This document shows positions 1 to 62,043 of a DNA stretch of 64,000 nt, piece after piece. Source of the stretch: Eledone cirrhosa (taxonomy: Eukaryota). A model generated the notes under the pieces. The model saw only the letters and a program-made list of their open reading frames with translations. It ran no database searches and was not told the origin of the DNA. A program made the translations under genes and the position numbers. How positions within the stretch are numbered: position 1 is the stretch's first letter; each line of letters starts with the position of its first letter. The DNA lies in the NCBI GenBank assembly GCA_964016885.1, contig OZ024740.1, positions 191,084,001 through 191,148,000 on the forward strand, written 5' to 3'.

Positions 1-1685
1 TGTTACCTGAAGAGTAACCCCAAGGAGAAAGGATATAGGAAACGGCCACTGAGGAGATGAATGCTGACGGGCTAGGACAAGATTTGGTTGATATCCTAAA
101 CTTAGTGGTAGATGAATTGAACAATGATAGTGGGAGACCTATGAACATAAGATTTGTAGACAGGAAAAAGTAAAAAGAAACAACAGCTAAAGTAAACAAT
201 GTCACCACATACCTTGAGGCGAGGAGACTTCACCAGTGCAACAATATCCTCAAAGCAACAGCAAATGCGGTGAGGAAACTACTTGGTATAAAAGCGAGAG
301 GAAACAACAGACAAGAAAGAGCAGAGCCTTGGTGGAAGAAACGACTGAGTGGTCAAATCAGGGAAATGAGAAATGACATTGGAAAGCTTGAGTCCCTACT
401 GAATGGGACACTAAAAAACATAGTCACTAAATATAGACTGGAAATAAGGTACAAAACTAGGAGGAAAAAGCTAAATATTATCATAGAGGAACTGAAGCAA
501 CGCATTGTAGCAAAGAGTGCAAAAGTCAGGCGATACGAGAACAGAGTCAGCCAGTATAGACAGAACCGCATGTTCGACAACAACAAGAAGATGCTGTTTG
601 GACAGCTTGAAGGGAAAGAAAGAGGCAACGACTTGATCCTTGAGTCGGAACAAACTAAAACATTCTGGAGAGGAATATGGGAACAGGATGTTAAACATAA
701 TGACCGGGCAGTGTGGATTGAGACAGTACAGAAGGAGATTAGTGAACAGGCACACCAACAAACTGACTTGAGTATCACAGTTGAAACTCTTAAGTGGCAG
801 GCCAAAAAACTAACCAACTGGAAATCACCAGGCCAAGATGGTGTGCAGGGGTATTGGATTAAAAATATAACATCCCTCCACCAGAAACTGACAACCGTGT
901 TCAATGACTGTTTGATGTCAGGTGTGGTACCAGAGTGGTTGACAAAAGGTACCACAGTTCTGATAATGAAAGACCGAATCAAGGGTAATGATGTTACCAA
1001 CTATAGACCTATCACATGTCTGTCCGTAATGTGTAAACTGTTGACAAGCATTATGTCTGAGGAAATCTACCATCACCTCCACACAAACAACTTGTTCCGG
1101 GTCGAACAGAAAGGATGCCGAAAGAAGTCACGTGGTACAAAGGACCAATTACTTATTGATAACATGGTAATGAGGAATTGCAAGAGGAGACACACAGGTC
1201 TTGCCATGGGATGGTTAGACTACAAAAAGGCATTTGACATGGTGCCTCATTCTTGGATCACCAAAAGCCTGGAGATCTTCAAGGTGGCAGATAACATCAG
1301 ACAGTTGTTGGACAAAAGTATGAAGTCCTGGGAAACAGAGTTAACATCAACTGGAGAATCCTTGGGAAGCGTGAAGATCAAGAGAGCTATCTTCCAGGGA
1401 GATAGTCTGTCCCCTCTGTTGTTTGTCCTTGTCCTGATGCCCCTGACCAGTGTACTGCGAAAAGTGAGAGCAGGATACCGTTTGGGAAAGCGAGGGCTTA
1501 CCATCAATCACCTCCTCTTCATGGACGATCTTAAGCTCTTCGGGAAGAGTGAGAAGGAGTTGGATGTGATTGTTGACACTGTCCGTATTTTCACCAAAGA
1601 TATATGTATGCAATTTGGTATTAGTAAGTGTGGAGTCATTGTGATGAAGAGGGGTAAGTTGAGCAGAAGTAACGGAATCCAGGTA
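1..1685 (+). mobile_element. R4/Dong-like non-LTR retrotransposon, family A, 5' part (RT), 3'-truncated
   Basis: ORF 270-1709 has RT motifs KSPGQDGV, NYRPITCL, QKGCR..RGTKDQLL, DYKKAFDMVPH, IFQGDSLSPLLF, HLLFMDDLKL. Homology breaks at ~1685 into (CCA)n/(TAA)n. Confidence 0.9.
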
Positions 1686-1709
1686 CCACCACCACCAATC
1701 CCAGCATAA
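270..1709 (+). CDS. Reverse transcriptase of R4/Dong-like retrotransposon (truncated)
   Basis: 479-aa ORF with non-LTR RT motifs through FMDD; C-terminal Zn-knuckle and RLE absent. Confidence 0.8.
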   Translation: MRKLLGIKARGNNRQERAEPWWKKRLSGQIREMRNDIGKLESLLNGTLKNIVTKYRLEIRYKTRRKKLNIIIEELKQRIVAKSAKVRRYENRVSQYRQNRMFDNNKKMLFGQLEGKERGNDLILESEQTKTFWRGIWEQDVKHNDRAVWIETVQKEISEQAHQQTDLSITVETLKWQAKKLTNWKSPGQDGVQGYWIKNITSLHQKLTTVFNDCLMSGVVPEWLTKGTTVLIMKDRIKGNDVTNYRPITCLSVMCKLLTSIMSEEIYHHLHTNNLFRVEQKGCRKKSRGTKDQLLIDNMVMRNCKRRHTGLAMGWLDYKKAFDMVPHSWITKSLEIFKVADNIRQLLDKSMKSWETELTSTGESLGSVKIKRAIFQGDSLSPLLFVLVLMPLTSVLRKVRAGYRLGKRGLTINHLLFMDDLKLFGKSEKELDVIVDTVRIFTKDICMQFGISKCGVIVMKRGKLSRSNGIQVPPPPIPA

Positions 1710-7866: not shown

Positions 7867-8599
7867 GACCACTTCATCTATGTTTAGTGACCTGAGGTCG
7901 CTGAGCAGGTGGCTCTGCTTCCATGACGACCTCAAGCCAAGCGCCTTTATGCTGCCTATTCTGAGTGAGATCATGTTGAAATGGAGTGGAAAAGATGGGA
8001 AAGAACACTTACCTTACATCTCGTAGAGGAAGGACGGTTTCTCCATACTTTTCACTGGTTCTGGCCTCCTCCGGAAGGATGTCCTTATAAATCCTCCTGG
8101 AGCGTGCTTGTCGGAAGTCTCCGATGTCTTTGGGGAATGTTTGTTTTAGTGTCGTGTACGTTTTCTGTCTGATGCGAGTGATTTGCATGTGTGGAGATGG
8201 TGTGAACTTTTGGTGTGTCGTGTATTCTTTTTTCTGTGATGCTGGTGTTGTGTAATAATGGTTGTTGTTCACATTTAATGCTGTGTAGTGTGTGTCGTTT
8301 TGGTTGTTTTGTTTTGTTTGCGTTTGTTGTGGGTTTGTTTCTGTTTCACTTCTTCGTGACTTTTGGTTTCTCACTGTTGTTGTTGCTGTTGTTGTTGCAC
8401 ATGGGTCTGCTGAGTGCTTGTATTGCCATCTTCTGGTTGTGTGTGGTTTTTAAGCCTACTCCTGTTGATGGCAATACAAGCACTCAGCAGAAACCTGTGA
8501 AAAGAGGGAAGGGGGACCCAAACAGACCCGGGGATCCCCCACCGTGCCTGGGGGAAGACCACCATGTAACACCTAAAGGGAACCCCAAGCTAGGCACGC

Positions 8600-9042
8600 A
8601 GAGGTCGACCACCCTCTGCAACTGCAGAAACCCCGAATCATGCCCCCTTGGCAATGAATGCCTTAAGAAGAACCTAGTATACCGTTGTATGTTTAAAACC
8701 CCCCACTCCGAACACATCTACATAGGAGCCACATCAACGAGCTTTAAAGAGCGCTGGTACAACCATCGCCATTCATTCCATAAGGAAGCCAAAAGGAAAA
8801 GTACGGCCCTCTCCGACCTGATCTGGAAGCTTAAGCTAGACAGGACTCCGTACTCTCTGGCCTGGTACATAATCAGGAAAGTACCACCTGATAAAGGTAG
8901 ATCTTGCTTATGCAAACTATGCCTGAACGAGACCATCGAGATACTAAGAGTTGGCAGTGGTCTGATAAACCTCAGAACCGACTTCTTCGGGACATGCAGA
9001 TACTTCAGGGCCGGGTCCTTCCTCAAGATATATGGACAGTAG
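8600..9042 (+). CDS. PLE-type GIY-YIG endonuclease domain
   Basis: CxC-x5-CPL-x3-CL linker, LVY...YIG motif, conserved R/H and CxxC..E. Confidence 0.8.
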
Positions 9043-10305
9043 CAACACAAGAAGATGTGAACTCCCCTCAAGCTATAGGGACTTCTCCAGAACATGTAGA
9101 CACCTCTCGGCCAGACCTCCCTCAAGCTATATGGGCAATAACAACACTCTAGGTTGAGAACTCCCCTCAAGCCATAGGGACCAACCCAGGCTGAGCAGAC
9201 ACCATGATATCCTAGAGATTGATTCTGACACAGCCATTATAATTTGGCCAACATCTTTATAACACACACACATTTTAATTTACTTGATATTTTATTTTTT
9301 AATTTTTCAATTTTGATTTCTCATTATAAATTTGTTATTTGTTTTCTGTTCTCTTCACTTTATCACCTTATATTTATTTTTAAGTTGAGATTGGTTATAA
9401 CACAAACACATTTTATTTGATTATCTTATTATTTTACCATCTTGTTCCTCATACCAATCTATCCAACATATTTCTGACCTTGATATTGATTATAGCACAC
9501 ACACACTTTATCTTACTTTATTTGAATCTTCATTTTATTTTTCACTTCTCCATATTCATTTTCATTACTTTTTCATTACTTTTTCATTAATTTTTCATTT
9601 ATTCTTTATTCTCTATGTATTATTTATTTTCTGTTTTCTTCACTTTATTGCTACATATTACTTCATATACATTGAAGAATCCCCCCCCCCCCAACCACCA
9701 CGGGAGATGATGGCAGGAGGAATGAAGAAACACACACACAGATCCTTCTAAATTGTCAGCAGCAGCAAGACATAAGCTGACCGCAACAACAACAACGCTA
9801 CCAAAATAAGTGCAGAGGTCAGATGTACTTAACAATAGCAAACGCACACACTACAGGGAGCCTCACCCCAGAAAGAATTTCTATAGTCTTTGGACTGAGG
9901 AATGCTCTCAAAACTGACCAATGGGAATTTGACATGTTTTTTATTTTGTTCCTTTACCATATTATTCCTTCTACCACTTTATCAATTTTTTTTTAGCTAA
10001 CTCCAACAATAACAACACTACCAACACAATAATAGAGGTCAGATGTACCTAACAATAACAAGAACAACAACTACAGATTGGCTTGCCTCAGAACGAATTT
10101 CTGTAGACTTTTGAATGAGGAATGTTCTAACAGCTGACCAATGGGAGGAGAAGAGGCCCTTTGACACTGAAATTCGTTTGTTTGAATTCATATGATTCCA
10201 GTTCCTCGTGAAATAACATCCCAACCAGGAACTGGGCATATAAGAGTATTGACAAAGTTATACACCTCAACAAAATATGTACATGTCTAGACCACACTAA
10301 TTCGG

Positions 10306-10360
10306 ACTGCCTGAAGAGGTCACGGCCGAAGATGGCTGTCACCGAAATATATATATCAGT
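10306..10360 (+). ncRNA. Type I hammerhead ribozyme (PLE-type)
   Basis: actgc-CUGAAGA-ggtcacggcc gaagat ggctgtcacc-GAAA-tatatata(t)cagt, then AATAAA. Confidence 0.75.
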
Positions 10361-10410
10361 AATAAACGAAACTAAATTTTAAACATTTGACTTATTTATT
10401 TTATTTCATT

Positions 10411-10590
<180 letters not shown>

Positions 10591-10702: not shown

Positions 10703-10956
10703 TAAGATGATACATGACATACCCTAAGATGTTAGATGGTTAAGATTTAATCAAGGTAGTGATTAACGTAAGAGAAAACTCAACATTTATACCTTAATAA
10801 TGAGAACATACGAACACGTAATAGAATCAATAGAGAAGGTGTGAGTAAGAAAAACATTGCTTAAATGTAACATTTCATGACAGCTCTTTCCCTAGTCAAC
10901 ATAAATTCCATTTCATTTTTAATAGACACACTATTAAACCATCTTATTCTACAACT

Positions 10957-11400
10957 ATGAATATGTACCAAAACATTGCTAAAATAAACAGTAACATTCT
11001 AAAGCAGAATCAGCATAATGATTTTAATAATAGTGTTAACATAAATAATAATAAATCTAAATGTAATTGTAGAAATCAACCTGATTGCCCTCTGCAAAAT
11101 AATTGTTTGGATAGTAATTTGGTGTATAAATGCACCGTAAAAACCTATTACAACACATACAACTACATAGGATCGACTTCTTCTACATTTAAGGCTAAAT
11201 TTGCGAATCATAAATGCTCATTTTCGAATTCTAATAGGAAATCATCGACTTCTTTATTACAGCTTATATGGTCAAAAAATACAAACGTTTATAATACTCC
11301 ATCCTTTGGACGAAACTTTGTAATAGGGGAGTTTTCCGCAACTCAAGTATATCAAGTAACTGCGCGCTTTGTACAATGGAGACACTTTTGATTAGTAATA
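10957..11400 (+). pseudogene. PLE GIY-YIG endonuclease fragment (frameshifted)
   Basis: CNCR..CPL..CL..LVYKC..YIGSTSSTFKAKFANHKCSF. Confidence 0.8.
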
Positions 11401-15656: not shown

Positions 15657-17061
15657 GAGAGATAAATATAGATATGTGCATGTGCTTATGAAATAAAATT
15701 AGCTATCACCGTTGCTATGATATCGGGATTATTACGTTGCATTACTTTTATCACTTTACAGATTCAATTCAGATCCGGCCAAGACAAATTTCTGTATCTG
15801 TAAACTACCGCCATAGTCGGTAGAGTAGATGATTGCTATACCATAGCTTGATATACTTTGTCGTTGTCATTTCAGATTATTTTCTGAGACTTCAAATTCC
15901 ATAGCTGTATAGCTACGTACCTTAACCTGCCACCCGTTTTAACAACATCATATGTGCTTAGGCGCATTAACTCTTTTGATTCTATTGAGAAAATTCCACC
16001 GAGGTAATCGTGATAACGACTGACTTCCTCCCTCGCATCTGTATAGATAGTTATGAAAATTTTAATTGACACCAACTTTTCCAACCTGACTAAATATTAA
16101 ATAAAACAGAAGAATATTTGAAGTGTACATACGTTACACATGCATAACATAATGTGATACTAAAACAAATTATTTAGTAAACTTCAACTGAAATCCAGGA
16201 CGGGCAATAACACTTTCCTCAACTATAATGAGTTGAATGTTCTCAAAATTCCAATCATGGATTTGTTCTTTGGAATTTTGGACTTAAAATCGGCATAAAA
16301 TGAATATGCATATTTTGATGTGGTAACAGAGGCTGACTGGTAGATAGGAATTATACATTGGATGTTATTGTTTAATATGGTTCCTATTACAGGAGAAAAG
16401 CATCGATGTTCTGAATTTTTCGTGATAAAATCTATACTTTCTATAATGTATGTTTTAGGTGTACCAATATATCATCGTCTTTATGAATATAATATATATA
16501 CGAAGGGTTCTATACAAGATCTCCAATATTTCATATTCACATGCTGGGATTAATTTTTTTCTCGTTAAGATATCAGTTGTCATTAAGTCAAGCCAAAGAC
16601 GAAATGTCATTATTGTTGATCGACATGATCAAAATAGCTTCTAGTATGCCTGAAATCATAAACCATTGAACTGACTAAGCTAGACACCATATTTCTTCAT
16701 ATCCCTAAATTGATAGGATGAACATAAGGATATTCTCAATAAACATACTTCTGTCTAATCAAATTTGATTTGGAGAAAACTATAAAAATACTATTTCAAG
16801 TTGTTTTCTTTTTGACAAATACAATTTAACTATATATCGGCAGAAACCATTTAATGTCGATATGTATATTAATATTGTGCAAGAAAAGATTTTATTGAAT
16901 TGTACTTTGTGGAATCACATATAGACATATAGACATATTCGTAAATATTTCAGTTGCTTTTGAAGGCAACATTGAGGTGAAAAAAGATGTTTACTACGAT
17001 ACTCACTAGATACAAGTTATATTGTTTCTCCGAATATATCTATATATATATATATAAAACA

Positions 17062-17543
17062 AAGTTAAATAAAACGTCAAATGTTTAAAATTCAGCTTCG
17101 TTTATTACTGCTATATATATTTCAGTGACAGCCATCTTTGGCTGTGACCTCTCCAGGCAGTCCGAATTAGTGTGGTATAGACAAGTACATATGTTGTTGA
17201 GATGTATAATATTGTCAATACTCTGATATGCCCAGTTCCTGGTTGGGTTGTTATGTCACTGAGGAACTGCAATCATATGAATTCATACAAACGAATTTCA
17301 GTGTGAAAGGGCCTCTTCACCTCTCATTAGTCAGTTGTTAGAACATTCCTCATTCTAAGTGTTGTTATTGTTCGATTTAGCTTAAAAAAATGATAAAGTG
17401 GTAGAAGGGACAAGGTGTTAAAGGAACAAAATAACAAAAAAAGTGTCAAACTTCCCATTGGTCAGTTCTGAGATCATTCCTCAGTCAGAAGTCTATATAA
17501 TTCTTTCTGGGGTGAGGCTCCTTGTAGTGTTTGTGTTTGCTAT
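17062..17543 (-). mobile_element. PLE 3'-end fragment (same family as 9835-10400)
   Basis: Reverse-complement match to 9835-10400 with an internal deletion; 3' end abuts (TA)n at ~17040. Confidence 0.85.
17107..17161 (-). ncRNA. Hammerhead ribozyme copy (A6G core change)
   Basis: Reverse complement: actgc-CUGGAGA-ggtcacagcc aaagat ggctgtcact-GAAA-tatata-UA-gcagt, then aataaa. Confidence 0.65.
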
Positions 17544-18159: not shown

Positions 18160-18201
<42 letters not shown>

Positions 18202-18326
18202 AATTGGTGTTGGATGCTTAAAGCATCGATAGGCGGTAGGCCATATGAGCACTCGATGTTCTCATGGAGCAGAGTATGATATTACAGAAAAAAAAGAATT
18301 AGTGTTGCTACGAATAGAATTTATTA

Positions 18327-18422
18327 GACATATTACAATCGTTTCTCTGGTGACCAGCTCGAGGCACGATCTATATGATGATCGAACCTGACTCTGAAAA
18401 TCGCAAGGTCCTCAGATACGTA
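18327..18422 (-). ncRNA. Hammerhead ribozyme (left IR arm)
   Basis: Reverse complement: acgtat-CUGAGGA-long helix II-GAAA-cgattg-UA-atatgtc, then aataaa. Confidence 0.65.
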
Positions 18423-19054
18423 ATGATTCTACGATGCATATTCCCCTATGTCCTTTTACATCGATATAATTCACTTGTCGGCTTAGATTCTGTTGTTGTC
18501 ATTCTATGAATGGTCAAGAATTGTACACGTCACGGTATTTCTAGCCAGTCATGGTTGAAAATTCTTTGGTTATTTTCATTCTCCACCTGCCAATCAAATG
18601 TGTTTCTTAGGTCGGAATTACTACTGTAGTAGGTAAGGGGTTGTATGCCTGAACTGCTGACGGCACTTCGACGTCTTCACTGTTTTTAGGGGCCCACTTT
18701 TACATCCATGGCGTACACATCCTCAACTGTACCATATGCGACGATAACGGTAAATAATGTTTGGAGGGAATGTTTAAATCAAATTAGAAAAATATCAGAA
18801 AAATATTAGATAAATATTTAGCATGACGTTTCAAGAACACAGCCTCAGAATACATTAAAACATACATATTTCAAAAGAAAAAAGTAAACAATCTCTGCAC
18901 ACGGAACGTTTATAAATGAATCCTTGGAACAGCCATTCAAAAAAAGTTATTTCGAAAGCATATTTGATATCTACACATATCTACACCCACACACTCTACT
19001 CAGGGAAGCGTGTATATTTGAGACGCTGCAACAAGACGGGGAAACCAAAGCGCA

Positions 19055-19870
19055 TTGGACGAGTGTTTCCCGACTTCACACAGGTACCACGAAATGTTCA
19101 AACGACACACCGTGAAGTTCTTATTTTCCACGGCACCTAACATAGCAGACTACAAGACCAAGGCCAATGCGTTGAAATTGAGGACACACCACCGACAAAT
19201 CGATCAGGCCCCAGACACGCCGGGGAGGCTGACAAGAGCGCACGCGGAAGTGGCTAGTGGTTCTGGATATGTGCCTGGTCCGGAGCTGTGGCCGAGGTGG
19301 ACTGCACACCTGCCAATAGAGACCTACTAGTGTGGAACACTAAGTCCACCGCTCTGCTGGAGCACCACTTGGTGACCGGGGAGAACCCAGATAAGACGCC
19401 AGGCCCAAATAAGGGGTATTACAATAATGATGCACGGACATGTAACTGCCGTGTTGAAGAGGAGTGCCCTCTACAGGGAATGTGCCTGACTAAGGGCGTT
19501 GTCTACAGATGTGTGGTTACCACGCAAAATGATAGGCACTCATACATCGCAGCTACATCCACGATTTTTAAATCGAGGATGTACAACCACAAGAACTCGT
19601 TCAAGGACAGGAACTAGAGACACTCCACCAGACTGGCGGAAATAGTATGGGGACTCAAAGACAGTGGCATAGAGTTTGACCTCAGCTGCAGTATTGTACA
19701 GCGAGCATATGTGTACTCGGCCGGGGGCAGGAAGTGCAAGTTATGCCTGTACTAGGCTATGGAGACAGTAAAACTTAAGAGCGACACAGTCAATATCAAC
19801 TCTGAAATCATCATGGCCTGCAGATACCAACGTAAATGCACTATCTCTGCTTTAGTGATACCGGATGGGT
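19055..19870 (+). pseudogene. PLE linker + GIY-YIG endonuclease (frameshift, stops)
   Basis: ORFs 19055-19330 and 19288-19617, continuing past a stop as RHSTRLAEIVWGLKD...CKLCL. Confidence 0.8.
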
Positions 19871-21551
19871 CTACCTAAGACACTACAGCCATCACAATAC
19901 CAGGTGGGGTGCGTGATGTGGACCAAGATATAAAACACAGCATACTTATGAATGCATGTCGGAACAAGCTGATATCAACGACAGACCCAGCGATGCCTAC
20001 CTCGTAACATACCCTAGATAGCACCGCCACAACAATTTGCGGACGCCGACTAAATATAAGTCTGATTTGTTCTACTACCCTATGTGTGGTTTTAAATTCC
20101 CAAATGTTTAAATTTTCGATCTTAGATTCGTGGTGTTTAATTTGCTGCTTAGATGCCGGACCTGATGCTGGTTTTAAGGTTAATGTCGCAGTTAATTTTA
20201 ACTTTGCCTGCCTTTGATATATACACGCCTACAACACAAGCTGCTGGCACATTCCAATCATGCATACATTCCAAGTACATTTCATATATACCGTTATGAA
20301 ACACACACCCTATTTATTCCATGTATTCACCCACAATATATATAACATGTTTGTGTACGCACGCAAGGTCCCCATGTGACCACCAACCATGAGACCAGTA
20401 CCTTAGATCACCAGTCCCCATGTATATTATATGACCATATGCACCACAACCCTCAAGTATTTTAGGCAATTTTACGCACGCCCCAGTAATGTTCGGTCCC
20501 CCTATGGATCCTTGTCATGTATACATTCCTTTTTCCAGCATTTTATTTTATATTATTTTATTTTATGTAGTTACAGGCATTTTTTTTTATCTATATGGGC
20601 CACCCATATTATATGTGATTAGCGCAAGGATACTATGTGGCTATAACCTTTATGCATATTGTGCATGCACTTCCGGGCGTATATCGCCACTTGATCGGGC
20701 TGGATCCAAGCCTCAAGAACGCTTTCCCATATAATAATATGTGCACCATGTGCACAGCCGCGCGTGTGTGTACGGATGGGTGGGTGTTGTTCAAGTATGC
20801 GCCATCGATATGAGTGTGCGTGGGCGCATGTATGTATGTGCGTCCACGCAGATATGCATGCGTACGTGTGTGCATATTTCTGGGTGGATGTGATTGTATG
20901 AATGCCTATGCGTAGATCTTTCTTTTTTTCATCTGTGTATATTGTTGCAACGTCTCAAATGTACACGATTCCCTGAGTAAAGTGTGTGAGTGTAGATATG
21001 TGTGTATTTATCAAAAATGGCTGTGAAATAACTTTTTTGAAAGGCTGTTCCAAGCATACATATAAACACGTTTCTTGTACAGGGATTTTTCTTTTTCCTT
21101 TTGAAATATGTATGTTTTAAGGTATTCTGAGGCTGTGTTCTACAAATGTTATGCTAAATATTTTTCTAATATTTTTCTAATATTTTTCTAATTTGATTTA
21201 AAAATCCCTTCAAATATTATTTACGGTGATCGTCGCATACGATACAGTTGAGGGTGTGTACGCTATCGGTTTAGAAATGGGCGCCTAAAGACAGTGAAGA
21301 CGTCGAAGTGCCGCCAGCAGTTCAAGCATACAACCCCTTACCTACTACAGTAGTAATTCAGACTAAGAAACACATTTGATTGACAGGTGGAGAATGAAAA
21401 TAACCAAATAGTGGACAAACATGAGTGGCTAGAAATACCGATTACGTGTACAATTCTTAACCACTCATAGAATGGCAACAACAGGATCTAATCCGACAAG
21501 CGAATTATATCGATGTAAAAGGATATAGGGGAATGTGCTTCATTAAATCAT

Positions 21552-21646
21552 GACGTATCTGAGGACCTTGTGATTTCAGAGTCAGGTTCGATCATCATAT
21601 ACATCGTGCCTCGAACTGGTCGCCAGAGAAACGATTGTAATATGTC
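21552..21646 (+). ncRNA. Type I hammerhead ribozyme with extended helix II
   Basis: gacgtat-CUGAGGA-(62 nt)-GAAA-cgattg-UA-atatgtc, AATAAA at 21648, (TA)n at 21690. Confidence 0.7.
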
Positions 21647-21687
21647 CAATAAATTACATTCTTCGCAACACTAATTCTATTTTTTCT

Positions 21688-21776
<89 letters not shown>

Positions 21777-21802
21777 GGGAAAAGGTATGAGATTCTCGGC
21801 GG

Positions 21803-21860
21803 AGCTCAAGCTGTTTCGACGGCTATTTCCAGAAATAGCCGTCGAAATGGCTTGAGCTCT
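21803..21860. repeat. Short palindrome (about 27-bp arms)
   Basis: gagctcaagctgtttcgacggctattt-ccag-aaatagccgtcgaaatggcttgagctc. Confidence 0.85.
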
Positions 21861-23427: not shown

Positions 23428-24255
23428 TAATATGTATGTGATGAAACACAGATACCAACACATCTGTATATATATTGCAAAAGAAAAATTTAGCCAGATT
23501 GAAGTATACTAATTATTATACTACAGTTTGTCCATATCGATTTAAAATAAATCAACGAAGGCGAACTGTATTGCCAAGAGGCCGTGATGTTTAGACACAT
23601 TTAAATTTCAAAATCAAACCTGTTCCGTAGATAAGTTTAAACATTAAGATCCAAATATGTTTCGAGTTAAATAAGTGTAGGAATATCATGTCCTGCTAAC
23701 CTCAGTAAACATCCAGAGACAAATTGATATGCTTCACTTCTAAATAATTTAAAAAACTGCGTGACGCACATGGTTTTACAGTATCTAACTAGTCTCATAA
23801 CCGTACTGCTAGAAATAACAGTCGTATATATGAGGCGGCTTGCAGCTCAAACTAGGAGCAGTTAAAATTAATAAGGTAATGAATCCTTTTACAATGGAAT
23901 CAGCTCGAAGGAGGAAAATACCCCCTGAGCAGTGTATAAATAAATATGTATGTGATGAAACACAGATACCAACACATCTGTATATATATTGCAAAAGAAA
24001 AATTTAGCCAGATTGAAGTATGCTAATTATTATACTACAGTTTGTCCTTTCGATTTAAAATAATAAATCAACGAAGGCGAACTGTATTGCCAAGAGGCCG
24101 TGATGTTTAGACACATTTAAATTTCAAAATCAAATCTGTTCCGTAGACAAGTTTAAACTTTAAGATCCAAATATGTTCGAGTTAAATAAGTGTCGGAATA
24201 TCATGTCCTGCACTCCTCATTAAACATCCAGAGACAAATTGATATGCTTCACTTC
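23428..24255 (+). repeat. ~310-bp direct duplication (23428-23740 and 23943-24255)
   Basis: Near-identical blocks from tatgtatgtgatgaaacacagatacc to gatatgcttcacttct. Confidence 0.9.
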
Positions 24256-26854
24256 TTCCACACACACACACATTATCTCTCTCTTCCACACACACACACA
24301 CACACTATCTCTCTCTTCCACACACACACACACTATCTCTCTCTTACACACACACACTATCTCTCACTTCCACACACACTATCTCTCTCTTCCACACCCA
24401 CACATACACTATCTCTCTCTTCCACACACACACACTATCTCTCTCTTCCACACACACACACTATCTCTCTCTTCCACACACACGCACTATCTCTCTCTTC
24501 CACACACACACACACACTATCTCTCTCTTCCACACACACACAATATCTCTCTCTTCCACACCCACATACACTATCTCTCTCTTCCACACCCACACACATT
24601 ATCTCTCTCTTCCACACACATACACACTATCTCTCTCTTAAACACACAAACACACTATCTCTCTCTTCCACACACACCCACTATCTCTCTCTTCCACACA
24701 CACACACACTATCTCTCTCTTCCACACACACACAATATCTCTCTCTTCCACACCCACACACACCATCTCTCCCTTCCACACACACACAATATCTTTCTTT
24801 TACAAACACACACACACTATCTCTCTCTTCCACACACACACACTATCTATCTCTTCCACACACACACACAATATATCTCTCTTCCACACACACACTATCA
24901 CTCTCTTCCACACATACACACACTATCTCTCTCTTCCACACACACACACACTATCTCTCTCTTCCACACACAAACATACTATCTCTCTCTTCCACACACA
25001 CCCACTATCTCTCTCTTCCACACACGCACACACTATCTCTCTATTCCACACGCACACACAATATATCTCTCTTCCACCCACACACACTATCTCTCTCTTC
25101 CACACACAAACACACTATATCTCTCTTCCACACACACACACACAATATATCTCTCTTCCAGACACACACACACTATCTCTCTCTTCCACACACACACTGT
25201 CTCTCTCTTCCACACCCACACACACTATCTCTCTCTTCCACACACACACACAATATACCTCTCTTCCACACGCACACACACACACACACTATCTCTCTCT
25301 TCTACACGCACACACACACAGACTATCTCTCTCTCTCTCTCACACACACTATCCCTCTCTTTCACACGCAGACACACACACACTATCTCTCTCTTCCACA
25401 CACACACACACTCTATATCTCTCTGTCAGACCCACCCACACTATTTCTCTCTTCCACACACACACTATATCTCTCTTCCACACACACGCACACAATATAT
25501 CTCTCTTCCAAACGAACACACACTATCTCTCTCTTCCACACACACACTATATCTCTCTTCCACACACACACTATCTCTCTCTTCCACACCCACACACACT
25601 ATCTATCTCTTCCACACACACACACAATATACCTCTCTTCCACACACACACACACTATCTCTCTCTCTCACACAAACTATACCACTCTTTCACACGCGCA
25701 CACACACACAATATCTCTCTTTTCCACACCCACACACTATATATATCTCTTCCACACACACACACATTATCTCTCTCTTCCACACACACACATACTATCT
25801 CTCTCTTCCACACACACCCACTATCTCTCTCTTCCACACACACACACACTATCTCTCTATTCCACACGCACACACAATATATCTCTCTTCCACCCACACA
25901 CACTATCTCTCTCTTCCACACACAAACACACTATATCTCTCTTCCACACACACACACACAATATATCTCTCTTCCAGACACACACACACTATCTCTCTCT
26001 TCCACACACACACTGTCTCTCTCTTCCACACCCACACACACTATCTCTCTCTTCCACACACACACACAATATACCTCTCTTCCACACGCACACACACACA
26101 CACACTATCTCTCTCTTCTACACGCACACACACACAGACTATCTCTCTCTCTCTCTCACACACACTATCCCTCTCTTTCACACGCAGACACACACACACT
26201 ATCTCTCTCTTCCACACACACACACACTCTATATCTCTCTTTCAGACCCACCCACACTATTTCTCTCTTCCACACACACACTATATCTCTCTTCCACACA
26301 CACGCACACAATATATCTCTCTTCCAAACGAACACACACTATCTCTCTCTTCCACACACACACTATATCTCTCTTCCACACACACACTATCTCTCTCTTC
26401 CACACCCACACACACTATCTATCTCTTCCACACACACACACAATATACCTCTCTTCCACACACACACACACTATCTCTCTCTCTCACACAAACTATACCA
26501 CTCTTTCACACGCGCACACACACACAATATCTCTCTTTTCCACACCCACACACTATATATATCTCTTCCACACACACACACATTATCTCTCTCTTCCACA
26601 CACACACACACTCTATATCTCTCTTCCAGACCCAGACACACTATTTCTCTCTTCCACACACACACTATATCTCTCTTCCACACACACGCACACAATATAT
26701 CTCTCTTCCAAACGAACACACACTATCTCTCTCTTCCACACACACACTATCTCTCTCTTCCACACACACACTATCTCTCTCTTCCACACCCACACACACT
26801 ATCTATCTCTTCCACACACACACACAATATACCTCTCTTCCACACACACACACA

Positions 26855-26895
<41 letters not shown>

Positions 26896-29800
26896 TATAC
26901 CACTCTTTTACACGCGCACACACACACAATATCTCTCTTTTCCACACCCACACACTATATATATCTCTTCCACACACACACACACTATCTCTCTCTTCCA
27001 CAACTACACACACAAAATATCTCTCTTCCACACACATACACACACTATATATCTCTTCCACACACACACACACTATATCTCTCTTCCACACACACACACA
27101 CTATCTCTCTCTTCCACACACACACTATCTCTCTCTTCCACACACACACACAAACACACTATCACTATCTTCCACACACACACACTATCTCTCTCTTCCA
27201 CACACACAATATCTCTCTCTTACACACCCACACACACTATCTCTCTCTTCCACACACACACACACTATCTCTCTCTTCTACATGCACACACACACACGCT
27301 ATCTCTCTGTATCTCTCACACACACTATCCCTCTCTTTCACACGCACACACACACTATATCTCTCTTCCACACACACACTATCTCTCTCTTCCACACACA
27401 CACAATATCTCTCTCTTTCACATCCACACATACCATCTCTCCCTTCCACACACACACAATGTCTTTCTTTTACAAACACACACACATTATCTCTCTCTTC
27501 CACACACACACACTATCTCTCTCTTCCACACACACAATATATCTCTCTTTCACACACACACACTATATCTCTCTTCCACACCTACACACACTATCTCTCT
27601 CTTCCACACACACACACACTATCTCTCTCTTCCACACACACACACAATATATCTCTCTTCCACACCCATACACACTATCTCACTCTTCCACACACACACA
27701 CACTATATCTCTCTTCCACACACACACACACAATATATCTTACTTCCAGACAAACACACACTATCTCTCTCTTCCACACACCCATAATCTCTCTCTTCCA
27801 CACCCACACACACTATATATCTCTTCCACACACACACACACAATATACCTCTCTTCCACAGGCACACACACACACACACACACTATCTCTCTCTCTCTCA
27901 CACACACTATCCCACTCTTTCACACGCACACATACACACACTATCTCTCTTTTCCACACCCACACACTATATATCTCTCTTCCACACACACACACTATCT
28001 CTCTGTTCCACACCCACACACACAATATATCTCTCTTGCACACACACACACACACTATCTCTCTATTCCACACACACAACATTCTCTCTTCCACACACAC
28101 ACACACACACACTATATCTCTCTTCTACACACACACACACTATCTCTCTCTTTCACACACGCACACACTATATCTCTCTTCCACACACAAACACACTATC
28201 TCTCTCTTCCACACACACACTATCTCTCTCTTCCACACACACACTATCTCGCTCTTCCACACACTCTATCTCTCCCTTCCACACATACACACTATCTCTC
28301 TCTTCCACACACACAATATCTCTCTCTTACACACCCACACGCACAATCTCTCTCTTCCACACACACACACACTATCTCTCTCTTCCACACACGAACACAC
28401 TATCTCTCTCTTCCACACACACACACTATCTCTCTCTTCCACACAAACACACACTATCTCTCTCTTCCAAACACGCACACACTATCTCTCTCTTCCACAC
28501 ACACACACTATCTTTCTCTTCTACACGCACACACACACACACACACTATCTCTCTCTCTCTCACGCAAACTATCCCTCTCTTTCACACGCACACACACAT
28601 ACACTATCTCTGTCTTCCACACACACACTATCTCTCTCTTCCACACCCACACACACTATCTCTCTCTTCCACACACACACACACACACTATATCTCTCTT
28701 CCACAGACACACACACTGTCTCTCTCTTTCACACACACACTATATCTCTCTTCAACACACACACACACTATCTCTCTCTTCCACACACACACATACACAC
28801 ACACACTATCTCTCTCTTCAACACACACACTATCTCTCTTGTCCACACACACACACACTATCTCTCTCTTCCACACACACAATATCTCTCTCTTCCACAC
28901 CCACACATACTATCTCTCTCCTCCACACACACACACACAATATATTTCTCTTCCACACACACACACTATCCCTCTCTTCCACACACACACACACTATCCC
29001 TCTCTTCCACACACACACACACACTATATCTCTCTTCCACACACACACTATCTCTCTCTTCCACACACACACCCACACTATCTCTCTCTTCCACACACAC
29101 ACTATCTCTCTCTTCCAAACACACACACACTATCTCTCTCTTCCACACACACACAATATATATCTCTCTTCCACACGCACACACACACACACACTATCTC
29201 TCTCTCTCTCTCTCTCACACACACTATCCCACTCTTTCACACGCACACACACACACACACCATCTCTCTTTTCACACCCACACACTATATCTCTCTCTTC
29301 CACACACACACACACCATCTCTCTCTTCCACACCCACACACACACTATCTCTCTCTTCCACACACACACACACACTATCTCTCTCTTCCACACACAGACT
29401 ATCTATCTGTTTCACACACACACACACTATCTTTCTCTTCCACACCCACACACTATATCTCTCTTCCACAGACACAATATCTCTCTCTTCCACACCCACA
29501 CACACTATTTCTCTCTTCCACACACACACACACACTATCTCTTTCTTCCACACACACACACTATCTCTCTCTTCCACACAAACGCACACTATCTCTCTCT
29601 TCCAAACACACACACACTATCACTCTCTTCTAGACACACACACTATCTCTCTCTTCTACACGCACACACACACACACACACTATCTCTCTCTCTCCCTCA
29701 CACACACTATCCCTCTCTTTCACACGCACACACACACACTATCTCTCTCTTCCACACCCACACACACTATCTCTCTCTCTTCCAAACACACACACACTAT

Positions 29801-30740
29801 ATCTCTCTTCCACACACACACACACTATCCCTCTCTTCCACACACACACACACACTATATCTCTCTACCACACACACACACACTATCTCTCTCTTCCACA
29901 CCCACAGAGACACTATCTCTCTCTTCCACACACACACACACTATCTCTCTCTTCCACACACACACAGACACTATCTCTCTCTTCCACACACACACACACT
30001 ATCTCTCTCTTCCATACACACACACTATCTCTCTTTTCCACACACACACTATCTCTCTCTTCCACACCCCCACACAATATCTCTCTCTTCCACACACATA
30101 CACGCACTCTATCTCTCTTCCACACACACACACACTTTCACTCTCTTCCACACACACACACTCTATATCTCTCTTCCACACACACACACACTATCTCTAT
30201 CTTCCACACACACACACTATCTCTCTCTTCCACACACACATTATCTCTCTCTTCCACACCCACACACACTATCTCTTTCTTCCACACACACACACACTAT
30301 CTCTCTCTTCCACACACAAACACACTATCTCTCTCTTCCACACACACACACTATCTCTCTCTTCCACACAAACACACACTATCTCTCTCTTCCAAACACA
30401 CACACACTATCTCTCTCTTCCACACGCACACACTATCTCTCTCTTCCACACGCACACACCCACACACTATCTCTCTCTGTCTCTCACACACACTATCCCT
30501 CTCTTTCACACGCACATACACACACACACACTATCTCCCTCCCTCTCTCACACACACTATCTCTCTCTTCCACACGCACCCACACACACGCTATCTCTCT
30601 CTCACACACACTATCCCTCTCTTCCACACACACACACACTCACACGCAAACTATTCCTCTCTTTCCCATACACACACACTATTTCTCTCTCTCTCTCTCT
30701 CTCTCCCTCACATACATATACATTCTCTCTCTCTCTCTCA
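24256..30740 (+). repeat. 6.5-kb minisatellite, unit ~(CA)nCTAT(CT)nTC (about 22-28 nt), with higher-order duplications
   Basis: Repeated ttccacacacacacactatctctctc. Matching ORF-track peptides at 25225/26041 and 25413/26229 show an 816-bp period. Confidence 0.95.
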
Positions 30741-31484: not shown

Positions 31485-31798
31485 ACTACTCCTAACCTAG
31501 CAGACGTCATAGGAACAACGAAGCACAGTAAGATCACTAAGACACACCACCTTAGCACAGACGCACCTGCACCTGACAATGACTATATCGGCCTTAACAA
31601 CTTCTTAGCAGCATCCAATAGTTCTGGCAACAGCCTCTACAGTCGTAACCAGCATAACCGCGACATGACTAGGAAACATGCAGGACATGACGTGCGGAAT
31701 AATAATCTTACCACCCCGCGCACTATGGGTTGTAATGGTGCTAACGACAAGTACGGGAGCGTAGATAACAACGTAGATAGCAACAAGATAGCCTTACC

Positions 31799-32251
31799 GT
31801 GGGAATTAGAAGAAACGGCGACAGAAATTGCAACTGCTGCGGCAGGGGACGCTGCCCCCTTAGAGGATACTGCTTGACAGATAGGGTTATATATAGGTGC
31901 ACTGTAACTAGCCACATTAACGTTAAACTTTTTACAGGGGCTACCTCTGGCCCGTTCAAAATTAGATTTCGAACACATCTTTACTCTTTCACAAATAAGA
32001 AATTAAGACACTCCACTTCGCTCGCGGACTACATTACATCATTAAAAGATTTAAACATCAGCTTCTCCACGCACTGGGATAATGTCGGCAGGGCTGCACC
32101 GTACAACTTTAGGAGGTGCAATATTTGCCTCATGGAGCTCTACCACATCATAACTGCACCCCACGAGTTCAACAGCAGAGTTGAAACGACGATATGTTTT
32201 ACACATCGCTTAAAAATATTCTTGTTCAGATCGATTAAGGATGAGGAGTGA
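31799..32251 (+). CDS. PLE-type GIY-YIG endonuclease domain
   Basis: Same motif series as the 8600, 10957 and 19288 ORFs. Confidence 0.75.
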   Translation: MGIRRNGDRNCNCCGRGRCPLRGYCLTDRVIYRCTVTSHINVKLFTGATSGPFKIRFRTHLYSFTNKKLRHSTSLADYITSLKDLNISFSTHWDNVGRAAPYNFRRCNICLMELYHIITAPHEFNSRVETTICFTHRLKIFLFRSIKDEE

Positions 32252-36042: not shown

Positions 36043-36083
36043 CCTTTACCGGTTTCGCAGTTCTTCTGCTTTTCAAAAAAAGT
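36043..36083 (-). ncRNA. U3-A8 hammerhead, mirror copy
   Basis: Reverse complement of 36153-36190 with minor changes. Confidence 0.6.
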
Positions 36084-36152
36084 GTGTTGAGATGGAGGGT
36101 CTGTGGTTTTTCTCACATGTGAGAAAAACCACAGACCCTCCATCTCAACACA

Positions 36153-36190
36153 CTTTTTGAAAAGCAGAAGATCTGCGAAACCGGTAAAGG
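36153..36190 (+). ncRNA. Minimal hammerhead, U3-A8 core variant
   Basis: cttt-UUGAAAA-gcaga aga tctgc-GAAA-ccgg-UA-aagg, then aataaa; palindromic accggt at helix III. Confidence 0.7.
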
Positions 36191-39516: not shown

Positions 39517-41427
39517 TTATACTTCTCTTAGGTCAGTGTTGTTTGTTTGGTTGTTGTTGTTGTTCCACTCATTCTTTCTGTTTAGATTTGGTCTTCTAAT
39601 TTCTATTTCACTGGCCTCTCTGATTTGCCTATCTGCTGGGTCATTCCTATGTTTAGATATTATTCTAATTTCTATGTTGTCTATGTTACCGTCATGTTGT
39701 TGTCTAGCATGTTCGTATAGTACTGGCCCGTTTTTTCGTCCTTTTAGTTCCCCCCAGTGTTGGTCTATCCTTTCACCTATGCTACGAGCTGTCTCACCTA
39801 TGTATGTTGTTGTCATGTTTCTGCAAGTACCCTCTGTACATCTTATGCTATAGACTACGTTTCTAGTTTTACAGTTTATCCGGGGGTTCACCTTACATAT
39901 GATACATTTCCTATTGGTACAGTGGGTTTTCTTAAAAGGGTAGGTTTTGCTGATCAGGGATTTTATGGTGGTTCCTGGCTTTTCTACCACCTTTATTTTT
40001 AAGTGGGTCTTTCTCAGGGCCTTTCTACACTGCTTAGCTAATTTCCCTCCAGGGGTGGCGTCCACAAACATGACACTCTGATATCTCTGGTTGTCGTACC
40101 ATGATGTGGCCTTCCCTATCTTATGTCTAGCCCTATCTAAGCTATTCCATGATTTGCTCCTGTATAGTGGGCAAATTCCTTTCATGTCCAGTTCTATGAG
40201 GGTCTTATACTTTTCCATGGCTCCTTCGTATACTCTGACTCTGTCTCTTTGGTTGTAGCCAGAGAACTGCATGCGGTTGATGAAGTGTTGGATGTGTCCT
40301 TCCATTTCTGTTGGATCGCACATGCTGGACACATTCTTCATCACTCGTACCAAATCTGCGATCAGAATATTAAACCTAGCACTACTGGACATTGCTGAGT
40401 TTTTGAGTATCAGGTATTTGGAGGCCATGGGTTTAGCATAGTGTGAGTGGAGAATTTGGGCTCTCTCGTCTATAGTGTTAATCCAGAGTTCTGTGTCTAA
40501 TACAGGTAGTCTATTGTTAGGGTGTTTGGAAGGGAAGTATATAGTTACAGTTATACTCTGGTGTATGGAATTAGCTATCTGCTGGATGCTTTCCATCGTG
40601 CTACGTTCTAAATCAAACTTGTTAGTGCTCTCTAGTGGGGGTGTTCTTATAACTATATTGATATCGTCTACATAACGAGAGTACATGATGAGGTCTATGG
40701 AGCTTTCATTAAGGAGATCTTTAAGTCTCCTTGCCCACCATACCATGAAAAGTTTGGCAACATCACCAGCTATGCTGACGCCGATGGCTGCTCCCTCATT
40801 TTGGGTGTAGATTTTCTCGTTGAACTTAAATATGTGGCCCTTTAGGGTAGTTTTGATACTAGCCCCTATTGCATGTGCGACCATTTTTCTTACCTGATCA
40901 GTGTTTTGGGGGGTCCGTATAGCTTTGGTCCACCCAATCCACCTTCCTATGGGAGTCTTTTTAGCCATTGAGGTTATGGTGGGGGGTCTACCTCTTATAG
41001 GTCTACTAGGGCAGAAACATCTAAGGTCATGGCTGTCTAGGTAGTCAGTGTCGTAGGTAAGTCTAAGTAGGAGGCCCAGTTCGTCTGTGTCGACGTCGCA
41101 GAACTCCACCTCACTCTCAATGATCATCTCCACACATCTTTTCACAGCAAAATCAATGTTAATGGATGGGTACAGTGACACCACATCCATGCTGCCTATT
41201 ATGCAGTTGGATAGGCTCCTGTTTTTGTTGCACTCACTGATTCTGCTGAGGAGGTCCTCTGTACTTTCACATACATCTGGGGACATCTTGATTATGGGGC
41301 GTATAACCATTGAGAGGAAGTAGGAGATCCTGTAGTTGCTAGCTATATTATCTCCGCATACGGGTCTTGTTGGTGGTCCTGTTGTCGGGTCGTCGACTGT
41401 CTTGTGGTCTTTGCGGAAAGACCACAA
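39517..41427 (-). CDS. PLE reverse transcriptase + GIY-YIG endonuclease (N-terminally truncated)
   Basis: KDHK..PPTRPV, SMDVVSLYPSI, YTQNEGAAIG, RYVDD, LPVLD, Cys linker HCTNRKCIIC, NVVYSIRC..YIGET..IGERIDQH, RQIREASEI..PNLN. Confidence 0.9.
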   Translation of the reverse strand: MWSFRKDHKTVDDPTTGPPTRPVCGDNIASNYRISYFLSMVIRPIIKMSPDVCESTEDLLSRISECNKNRSLSNCIIGSMDVVSLYPSINIDFAVKRCVEMIIESEVEFCDVDTDELGLLLRLTYDTDYLDSHDLRCFCPSRPIRGRPPTITSMAKKTPIGRWIGWTKAIRTPQNTDQVRKMVAHAIGASIKTTLKGHIFKFNEKIYTQNEGAAIGVSIAGDVAKLFMVWWARRLKDLLNESSIDLIMYSRYVDDINIVIRTPPLESTNKFDLERSTMESIQQIANSIHQSITVTIYFPSKHPNNRLPVLDTELWINTIDERAQILHSHYAKPMASKYLILKNSAMSSSARFNILIADLVRVMKNVSSMCDPTEMEGHIQHFINRMQFSGYNQRDRVRVYEGAMEKYKTLIELDMKGICPLYRSKSWNSLDRARHKIGKATSWYDNQRYQSVMFVDATPGGKLAKQCRKALRKTHLKIKVVEKPGTTIKSLISKTYPFKKTHCTNRKCIICKVNPRINCKTRNVVYSIRCTEGTCRNMTTTYIGETARSIGERIDQHWGELKGRKNGPVLYEHARQQHDGNIDNIEIRIISKHRNDPADRQIREASEIEIRRPNLNRKNEWNNNNNQTNNTDLREV

Positions 41428-41950
41428 GACAGCATTATGAGAGATCTGCCTATGGGTAACGATGAGCCACTCTGTTTTTTAAATATGTTAATTATTTTCA
41501 ACTGAACAAGATCAATTATGATATAGAGTCACCTGATGCAGAAATATTATATGGAGTAGCGAAACAATTGTAAACGGTCATTATTAATATTAATATTATT
41601 ATTATTATTCTCTACATTCCTTACATCAAAATAAAATATGTTGACAATCTTTTAATAATGTCTTCCGTGTGAAATTTGTGGTCTCGTTTTGCTTAACTAA
41701 TGAATATTTCTACCACTGCGCACCTAACTTCTGCATGAACCACCCACCTAACTGCTTTCTACTGCATATTGCACATTGAGCACATGCCTTTACACTTTGG
41801 CTTCTAACTAACTCACCAATCTCTCCTTTCATATCTCCTCTACTATCCCCATCTCTCTCTTTAAGATTGGTTACTCTTGAACTGTGTATATATATATATA
41901 TATATGTATATACTTATATATGTATACATATATATATATATATATATATA

Positions 41951-57649: not shown

Positions 57650-57873
57650 GTATTGAGGCTCAGTGTTATTTAATCCATATTTATAGAATAGGTTCTTTCT
57701 GCTGCGAGAATTTACAGTAAATTCTCGCAGCAGAAAGAACCTATTCTATAAATATGGATTAAAAACAAGTAACATTCAGCCTCAATACACTGAGCCTCAG
57801 GTATGGAAGAACCTATTCTATAAATATGGATTAAAGACAAGTAACATTCAGCCTCAATACACTGAGCCTCAGG
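57650..57873. repeat. Palindrome fused to a ~72-bp tandem duplication
   Basis: 57669-57713 mirrored by 57719-57763; agaacctattctataaatatggattaaa..cctcaatacactgagcctcaggt occurs twice. Confidence 0.85.
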
Positions 57874-61746: not shown

Positions 61747-61894
61747 ATTATTTAACGATCGTTTCTAGGATATATATGTGTTAGAATTGGCATGCATATT
61801 CAACAGATCTATGTACAAAATTATACAAAATTATACAAACTATCAAGATTAAATATACATACCAACACATATATACGCCGTCTTCAGAAATAAT
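61747..61894 (-). ncRNA. Hammerhead, mirror copy
   Basis: Exact reverse complement of 61896-62043. Confidence 0.65.
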
Positions 61895-61895
61895 G

Positions 61896-62043
61896 ATTAT
61901 TTCTGAAGACGGCGTATATATGTGTTGGTATGTATATTTAATCTTGATAGTTTGTATAATTTTGTATAATTTTGTACATAGATCTGTTGAATATGCATGC
62001 CAATTCTAACACATATATATCCTAGAAACGATCGTTAAATAAT
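61896..62043 (+). ncRNA. Type I hammerhead with ~115-nt helix II
   Basis: attattt-CUGAAGA-cgg cgtatatatgtgttgg...ctaacacatatatatccta-GAAA-cgatcg-UU-aaataat; 7-bp helix I, palindromic helix III. Confidence 0.72.

What the first reader, a model, noticed from the sequence alone, without database searches (positions are those of the whole stretch)
18278..21692. Endonuclease-only PLE body enclosed by ~750-bp inverted repeats with outward-facing ribozymes
Seen: (TA)n, then an inverted copy of the 3' end (HHR on -), linker + GIY-YIG, a long UTR, the 3' end (HHR on +), then (TA)n. No RT. The arms differ visibly (roughly one base in ten by eye). Established: PLE insertions often carry an inverted 5' pLTR. 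Inference: (TA)n is its own reverse complement, so nicks on both strands could each prime reverse transcription from an RNA 3' end, giving two cDNAs joined head-to-head. This would create a TIR-like unit with identical outer termini.
Basis: partly seen in the sequence, partly recalled or inferred. Interest (0 to 1): 0.75.

Follow-up and report, generated by a model that had tools for sequence, protein, structure and literature searches.

The report
Two-armed Penelope insertion, one end tailed
This is an old, cut-short copy of a known kind of jumping gene (a Hydra-type Penelope-like retrotransposon) whose two back-to-back arms end at two different fixed points, as in nearly every two-armed copy sampled from this genome, which likely means that both cut DNA strands started copying the element's RNA, each at its own start site.

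Summary
The inverted arms (89.5% alike), two outward-facing hammerheads, the endonuclease remnant and the (TA)n flanks are real. The unit starts at 18200, not 18278: the left arm carries a 79-base family 'tail' that the right arm lacks, so the outer ends differ. 'Endonuclease-only' is plain 5' truncation; other copies run on into the reverse transcriptase of a ~4.9-kb Hydra-clade family (at least 2,019 exact hits of one 21-mer). The layout is published. In 78 loci picked without regard to structure, 55 of 80 units were head-to-head; 48 of 49 with two readable ends paired a tailed with an untailed end, none had two tails. Junctions vary (84 distinct of 89), so this is no TIR-like mobile unit. 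Either arm may be the longer (26 vs 15), against fold-back. Paired arms share rare variants (101 vs 10.6 expected). Best reading: twin target-primed reverse transcription from two internal start sites (0.65); trimming of one tail is not excluded. The scan already noted this pattern in other Penelope families, here and in at least 16 genomes; three paper searches found no such model in print.

The parts
18163..18198 (.). (TA)n target array, left
18200..18278 (-). 79-base tail (the family's 5' UTR segment that follows the short 3' end); on the left arm only; its outer end is the 'tailed' terminus
   Evidence: the same 79 bases end many other copies and run on into the ORF in full-length copies
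18250..18276 (-). first hairpin of the tail (5-bp stem, 2-base bulge, 6-bp stem in most copies), starting 3 bases after the short terminus; two substitutions weaken it in this copy
   Evidence: predicted folds only
18279..19034 (-). left (inverted) arm: last ~725-750 bases of the family's 3' UTR/pLTR
18327..18422 (-). type I hammerhead motif, core intact, predicted cut between 18334 and 18333
   Evidence: layout matches the Hydra HHR table seen; activity untested
19032..19050 (+). junction piece copied from the ORF about 380 bases upstream of the truncation point, with 2-3 base overlaps on each side (template jump or deleted template)
19049..19878 (+). 5'-truncated ORF end: linker, CxCX5C motif (from 19441), GIY-YIG domain (VVY...YIA), CxxC, CRY; frameshift near 19260-19330; stops at 19615-19617 and 19753-19755
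   Evidence: copy L072 gives a weak Pfam GIY-YIG hit, E 0.01, below the curated cut-off
19879..21694 (+). 1.8-kb 3' UTR; holds one copy of a 52-bp unit (20955-21007) that forms arrays in other copies
20942..21694 (+). right arm (the part homologous to the left arm), ending at the short terminus without tail
21525..21694 (+). last 170 bases: the 5' limit of most short family copies (likely RNA 5' end; inferred)
   Evidence: 34 of 130 arms begin at -172 to -166
21552..21646 (+). type I hammerhead motif, core intact, predicted cut between 21639 and 21640
21695..21776 (.). (TA)n target array, right

Best explanation
This is a dead, 5'-truncated copy of a Hydra-clade Penelope-like retrotransposon with one tailed and one untailed end, likely made in a single event in which the element's protein nicked both strands of a (TA)n array and each free DNA end primed reverse transcription at a different fixed site inside the element's RNA. 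Shown: two fixed termini 79 bases apart; near-obligate pairing of one of each in head-to-head units; variable junctions; (TA)n at both ends. Inferred: the two termini are RT start sites. Each ends in 3-4 bases that match (TA)n and lies 2 bases before a small YRCTC/GAGYR stem. Inferred: both cDNAs run toward the RNA 5' end, stop early or at -170, and are joined by short overlaps or template jumps. Inferred, weaker: one RNA (or one source locus) serves both arms, handled by a two-part enzyme. Here the untailed cDNA reached 2.7 kb (into the endonuclease gene) and the tailed one 0.8 kb; the copy then aged to 10.5% arm divergence.
For: Sample picked without regard to structure: the first 100 of 2,019 exact 21-mer hits, 78 loci, 80 units; 55 inverted head-to-head, 25 single, 0 tail-to-tail. 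Of 49 with two readable ends, 41 short/tail, 7 short/part-tail, 1 short/short, 0 tail/tail (P about 9e-14 against independent 50:50 choice). The single short/short unit (L168) also duplicates non-family flank and has a TA array between its arms, so it looks like a later duplication. The two like-with-like units in the other samples (L108, L078) have arms from different subfamilies, 73-74% alike to the reference. Junction pairs: 84 distinct of 89. Further 5' reach: short arm 26, tailed arm 15, tie 7. Both arm types pile up at the same -170 limit (19 and 17 arms at -172 to -165). Arm-to-arm identity exceeds background in 55 of 62 pairs. Rare variants shared by paired arms: 101 vs 10.6 expected over 64 units; in this copy 10 vs mean 1.24, maximum 6 of 50 comparisons, spread over 560 bases. 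(TA)n follows 101 of 115 termini. In vitro, a Poseidon PLE cuts and extends both strands and starts RT at two internal sites that bracket the tail (PMC11167929, parts 1-2 of 4 read).
Against: All evidence is genomic footprint; no activity was tested. Trimming of one tail after both arms start at the tail end gives the same pairing. About three quarters of rare variants are private to one arm, and 42 of 64 units share none. This copy's arms are no closer overall (89.5%) than its right arm is to the best other copies (89%). Shared variants could come from one source locus or from later gene conversion rather than from one RNA. Seven of 48 units are ties, and some junctions are palindromic (L145, L180, L066, L065), as fold-back predicts. 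The in vitro study saw no strand difference in start-site use and no homology between primer and start site. No extra-G cap signal at -170 (5 of 38 rows, some of which are not true truncations). Only 16 of 62 junctions were clean enough for an exact microhomology count (6 with 3 or more bases vs 5% null). The second hairpin folded as predicted in only 3 of 5 copies that hold it. The sample is one contig; L128/L129 look like one duplicated event; L170's arms are 2.7 kb apart; I set wider joining gaps by hand for 9 loci.
Confidence: 0.65

Rival explanations
1. Both cDNAs start at the tailed end, and the endonuclease then cuts the tail off one arm while resolving the intermediate (the reading given for the tail in PMC8557442).
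For: Predicts the one-tail rule and a sharp short terminus. PMC11167929 notes that the D. virilis EN needed the tail to recognise and cut.
Against: PMC11167929 mapped two RT starts that bracket the tail in vitro. Both termini here sit at the same offset before similar stems and join (TA)n in the same way. Single short-ended copies are as common as single tailed ones (13 vs 12).
Confidence: 0.15
2. One arm is copied from the other by fold-back or self-priming (on the first cDNA or on an antisense RNA; PMC3846280 discussion).
For: Explains rare variants shared by the arms. Palindromic junctions in L145, L180, L066 and L065 and 7 ties in 48.
Against: Fold-back needs the tailed arm to reach at least as far 5' as the other. 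The untailed arm reaches further in 26 of 48 units, including this one (-2728 vs -725). The junction here holds ORF sequence that is in neither arm.
Confidence: 0.1
3. Two separate insertions into the same (TA)n array, or a later inverted duplication.
For: The arms differ by 10.5%. L168, L108 and L078 look like such cases.
Against: No TA between the arms here. Orientation is not random (55 head-to-head, 0 tail-to-tail). End types are not random. The arms share 10 rare variants.
Confidence: 0.07
4. A fixed TIR-like unit carrying an endonuclease that moves as DNA.
For: Long inverted arms enclose an endonuclease gene remnant.
Against: Outer ends differ by 79 bases. No other fetched locus has this junction. 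84 of 89 junction pairs are distinct. The gene has no start, a frameshift and two stops; most other copies continue upstream into the ORF.
Confidence: 0.02

Closest known systems
Hydra clade of C-terminal EN+ Penelope-like elements (Craig et al. 2021, PMC8557442; abstract, passages, sections 6 and 11, supplement part 2 of 59 read)
   Same: RWR (for RWK), DKT, CxCX5C linker, CxxC and CxH around the conserved E and N, type I hammerhead near the 3' end, insertion into (TA)n. The supplement lists Penelope-13_HM with a 5'-truncated inverted copy at its 5' end (nt 1-966) and a hammerhead on each strand: the same layout as this finding.
   Different: About 4.9 kb rather than under 3 kb, with a 1.8-kb 3' UTR, extra ORF stretches, a 79-base tail (30-40 quoted) and a 43-base loop II. 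Its hammerhead sequence differs from the listed Hydra-1_oBim, so it is another family. No phylogeny against the published references was run.
General EN+ PLE insertion layout: inverted 5'-truncated copy plus a tail at one end (PMC8557442 Fig. 2 legend; Adineta Pen2a in PMC3846280, 9 passages read)
   Same: Head-to-head inverted arm, tail on one end only, variable truncation.
   Different: Those texts say 'often' or 'optionally' and explain it by EN resolution or self-priming. Here the one-tail rule is counted (48 of 49) and arm nesting is tested and fails.
Anolis Poseidon PAc in vitro (Frangieh et al. 2024, PMC11167929; parts 1-2 of 4 read)
   Same: Both strands cut and extended, AT-rich target, two internal RT starts that bracket the tail, hammerhead cutting not needed.
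   Different: No strand preference in start site in vitro, and no two-armed products described in the parts read. A different clade.
L1 twin priming (recalled, from no call)
   Same: Both target strands prime on one RNA and give an inversion.
   Different: In L1 the arms come from different, non-overlapping parts of the RNA and the second start is not fixed. Here the arms overlap and both starts are fixed.

Membership tests
Hydra-clade PLE | RT followed by C-terminal GIY-YIG EN in one ORF | tested here: met
   Copies L065-L068 extend about 2.1 kb upstream with RT-type motifs. Homologs P0002-P0005 are 630-685 aa RT+EN proteins, E 4e-29 or better. Pfam RVT was not hit by the L066 fragment. All copies seen are broken.
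Hydra-clade PLE | RWK motif and DKT in place of DKG | tested here: met
   RRMRWRAFH (R for K) and PDKTGN in L068; absent from the window copy because it is truncated
Hydra-clade PLE | CxCX5C linker | tested here: met
   CNCRVEEEC in the window protein
Hydra-clade PLE | CxxC and CxH beside the conserved E and N; no CCHH inside the GIY-YIG core | tested here: met
   CKLC and CRY in the window, CRH in L072 and all four homologs. CCHH judged absent by eye: the cysteine inside the core is not conserved in the homologs.
Hydra-clade PLE | Canonical type I hammerhead | tested here: met
   Core CUGAGGA...GAAA, 7-bp stem I, 8 of 9 pairs in stem II, 2-bp stem III; 94.5% of cells paired over 50 of 131 copies found, one pair with a two-sided change in 10 copies. 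78 of 131 copies keep the strict core. Not found by Rfam; cleavage untested.
Hydra-clade PLE | Insertion into (TA)n | tested here: met
   101 of 115 termini followed by (TA)n
Hydra-clade PLE | Short length (<3 kb, 'generally') | tested here: not met
   About 4.9 kb; a tendency in the paper, not a defining character
Hydra-clade PLE | Placement in the Hydra clade of an RT tree | not tested
   No named reference proteins were returned
TIR/foldback DNA transposon unit | Identical inverted termini and a fixed internal structure across copies | tested here: not met
Non-LTR retrozyme | Non-coding tandem monomers each with a hammerhead | tested here: not met
   The family is coding; no tandem -170 to +79 monomers in 134 loci

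The most novel reading that the evidence does not exclude
Penelope-like elements integrate by a coupled two-sided reaction: one RNA-protein complex docks the two nicked target strands on two fixed, hairpin-marked start sites of one RNA, so that every two-armed product has exactly one tail, and most products copy only the first 170-250 bases of the mRNA. This would explain the inverted pLTR and the one-sided tail together.
Probability: 0.5. Interest if true: 0.65.

Novelty: new member of a known kind. Interest (0 to 1): 0.42.

Why it matters
The single insertion is ordinary: a published layout in a known clade. The family-wide counts matter because how Penelope-like elements integrate, and why they leave an inverted arm and a one-sided tail, is stated as open in the papers read (PMC8557442, PMC11167929). 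The near-strict tailed/untailed pairing and the lack of arm nesting rule out simple fold-back for most units and give a sharp prediction for the existing in vitro system. For annotation, such units can be mistaken for MITEs or TIR elements.

Tried and rejected
Rfam searches of the whole window and of 18200-21700 found no hammerhead; the motif rests on a hand descriptor and pair counts. Unconstrained folding of the hammerhead regions was not better than shuffles (z 0.09 and -1.08). Pfam found nothing for the window protein or for an RT fragment, and only a sub-threshold GIY-YIG hit for L072. Ribozyme cut as the template end: not supported; the predicted cut is at -54 and only 4 of 130 arms begin at -60 to -41. 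Cap-derived G at -170: not seen. Target-site duplications could not be read inside (TA)n. RNA test of the -170 start: no RNA holder listed; no reads were laid. Paper searches: the twin-priming search listed two papers, seen as listings only and neither about Penelope mechanism; the library lacks most subscription papers, including older Penelope work that may discuss such models. bioRxiv 10.64898/2026.07.22.740005: part 1 of 5 read, not used for a claim; its supplements were not seen. The host species was not determined.

Full report
1. Observation. The arms at 18279-19034 and 20942-21694 are 89.5% identical over 752 ungapped columns. Between them lie a broken linker plus GIY-YIG frame (19049-19878; frameshift, two in-frame stops, YIG changed to YIA) and a 1.8-kb UTR. 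(TA)n arrays flank the unit. They belong to the family: many other copies end with the same 79 bases, and in full-length copies they run on into the 5' UTR and the start codon. This is the PLE 'tail', described as often present at only one end (PMC8557442, section 6). The right arm lacks it, so the outer termini are not identical.

2. Family. The window lies in a 3.0-Gb genome. One 21-mer near the 3' end has 2,019 exact matches and 0 for the reversed control. Of the 29 other EN-matching loci shown, most continue upstream of window position 19049 with the same ORF sequence; four of 20 longer loci reach about 2.1 kb further, through RT. So 'endonuclease-only' is a 5' truncation. The family shows RWR, DKT, CxCX5C, CxxC and CxH, the characters given for the Hydra clade (PMC8557442, section 11). 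Four unnamed homologs are 630-685 aa RT+EN proteins. At about 4.9 kb it is longer than the published members. No tree was built.

3. Hammerheads. Rfam missed them. A descriptor found 131 distinct copies, 78 with the strict core, including both window arms. On 50 of them, 94.5% of cells pair, against 16-46% for slid controls, and one stem II pair changes on both sides in 10 copies, which is one subfamily-level event. The layout resembles the Hydra hammerheads in the paper's supplement, which also lists Penelope-13_HM with an inverted 5' copy and a hammerhead on each strand. The two ribozymes face outward simply because each arm is a 3' end. Activity is untested, and arm ends do not gather at the predicted cut (4 of 130 arms at -60 to -41).

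4. Population test. I fetched the loci of the first 100 pattern hits (all on contig C1, with four already held). They give 78 loci and 80 units: 55 inverted, all head-to-head, and 25 single (13 short, 12 tailed or part-tailed). Six inverted units had one unreadable end and were left out. Of the other 49: 41 short/tail, 7 short/part-tail, 1 short/short, 0 tail/tail (P about 9e-14 against independent choice). Caveats: L128 and L129 look like one duplicated event, L170's arms are 2.7 kb apart, and I widened the joining gap by hand for 9 loci. Two biased samples agree: tail-selected (35 loci) 19 short/tail, 1 tail/part-tail, 1 unreadable, 3 complex, 13 single, two of which form a tail-to-tail pair 132 bases apart (L106); EN-selected (21 loci) 8 short/tail or part-tail, 1 short/short, 3 unreadable, 10 single. 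The exceptions are informative: L168 duplicates non-family flank, and L108 and L078 join arms of different subfamilies.

5. Junctions and arm lengths. 84 of 89 junction pairs are distinct, so each unit is its own event. In the unbiased sample the untailed arm reaches further 5' in 26 units, the tailed arm in 15, with 7 ties. Fold-back from a tailed first strand cannot give a longer untailed arm; this copy has untailed -2728 and tailed -725. 34 of 130 arms begin at -172 to -166, both types alike, and only 19 reach further. I read -170 as the 5' end of the usual RNA; that is inference, with no cap signal and no RNA run to test it. The window's junction holds 19 bases from about 380 bases further up the ORF, with 2-3 base overlaps. 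Among 16 clean joints of 62, 6 have 3 or more bases of microhomology against 5% expected.

6. One template? Paired arms are more alike than background in 55 of 62 pairs (mean 93.2% vs 89.9%) and share 101 rare variants against 10.6 expected. The window arms share 10 (background mean 1.24, maximum 6), spread from -577 to -21. Yet they differ at 10.5% of sites, about as much as from the best other copies, so the insertion is old and most differences arose later. One RNA, one source locus and later gene conversion are not separated by these data.

7. Mechanism. Most likely (0.65) the protein nicks both strands of (TA)n, and each 3' end primes RT at one of two internal sites 79 bases apart; the two cDNAs are then joined head-to-head. 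The sites end in ATAT and TAT, which match the target. Following a lead from earlier scan notes, I checked for paired hairpins: a bulged stem starts 3 bases after the short end in most of 79 tails, with compensating changes in divergent copies (L108, L123, L166), and a weaker stem with the same outer YRCTC/GAGYR pairing starts 3 bases after the tailed end in 3 of 5 copies that hold it (predicted folds). The in vitro work on PAc shows both-strand extension and two starts bracketing the tail, but no strand preference (PMC11167929, parts 1-2 of 4). Trimming of one tail by the endonuclease (0.15) fits the counts equally and is the main rival; fold-back (0.10) may explain a minority.

8. Novelty. 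The layout and clade are known. The family was not matched to a named one, so I file it as a new member. The counted one-tail rule and the nesting test were not found in the searches, but the library lacks most subscription papers. The scan's own notes report the same reading in 76 findings in at least 16 genomes; my counts were made before that look-up, and the notes are not counted as support. Interest 0.42: an ordinary element whose family gives a testable constraint on an open mechanism.

Noticed in passing
window 8206-9042, 10849-11391, 31781-32251 (all +): Three further endonuclease remnants with CxCX5C linkers, apparently other Hydra-type families (judged by eye).
   Followed up: no
window 39517-41478 (-): 653-aa open frame with RT-like (YVDD) and GIY-YIG-like (YIG) motifs, likely a PLE of another clade (judged by eye).
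   Followed up: no
window 174-1709 (+), with related pieces to about 7600: 511-aa open frame with non-LTR RT-like motifs (judged by eye).
   Followed up: no
window 24254-30640: 6.4-kb satellite of a 26-28-bp unit built from (CA)n and (TC)n.
   Followed up: no
window 20955-21007; L007, L027, L029, L030, L064, L066: A 52-bp unit, single in this copy, forms arrays of up to about 27 units in the 3' UTR of other copies; the left arm ends just beside it.
   Followed up: partly
window 21802-21859: Small palindromic repeat just past the right (TA)n array; the same motif occurs in 27 of 134 fetched loci, perhaps another (TA)n-seeking element.
   Followed up: partly
L066 about 1880-1960; L065 about 2340-2480: Near-full-length copies whose 5' end is a short palindrome made of tail sequence, centred in or next to the hairpins; they look like fold-back products.
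   Followed up: partly
L124, L126, L135, L139, L148, L164, L165, L138: Single-armed copies that begin at about -160 to -170 directly after (TA)n: possibly events in which the second cDNA was lost.
   Followed up: partly
window 17033-17543 and 9835-10435: Inverted dispersed repeat pair, 86-90% alike, not part of the family.
   Followed up: no
window 36078-36157, 57665-57765, 61855-61935: Short near-perfect palindromes that scored below threshold against miRNA models; likely MITE-like.
   Followed up: no
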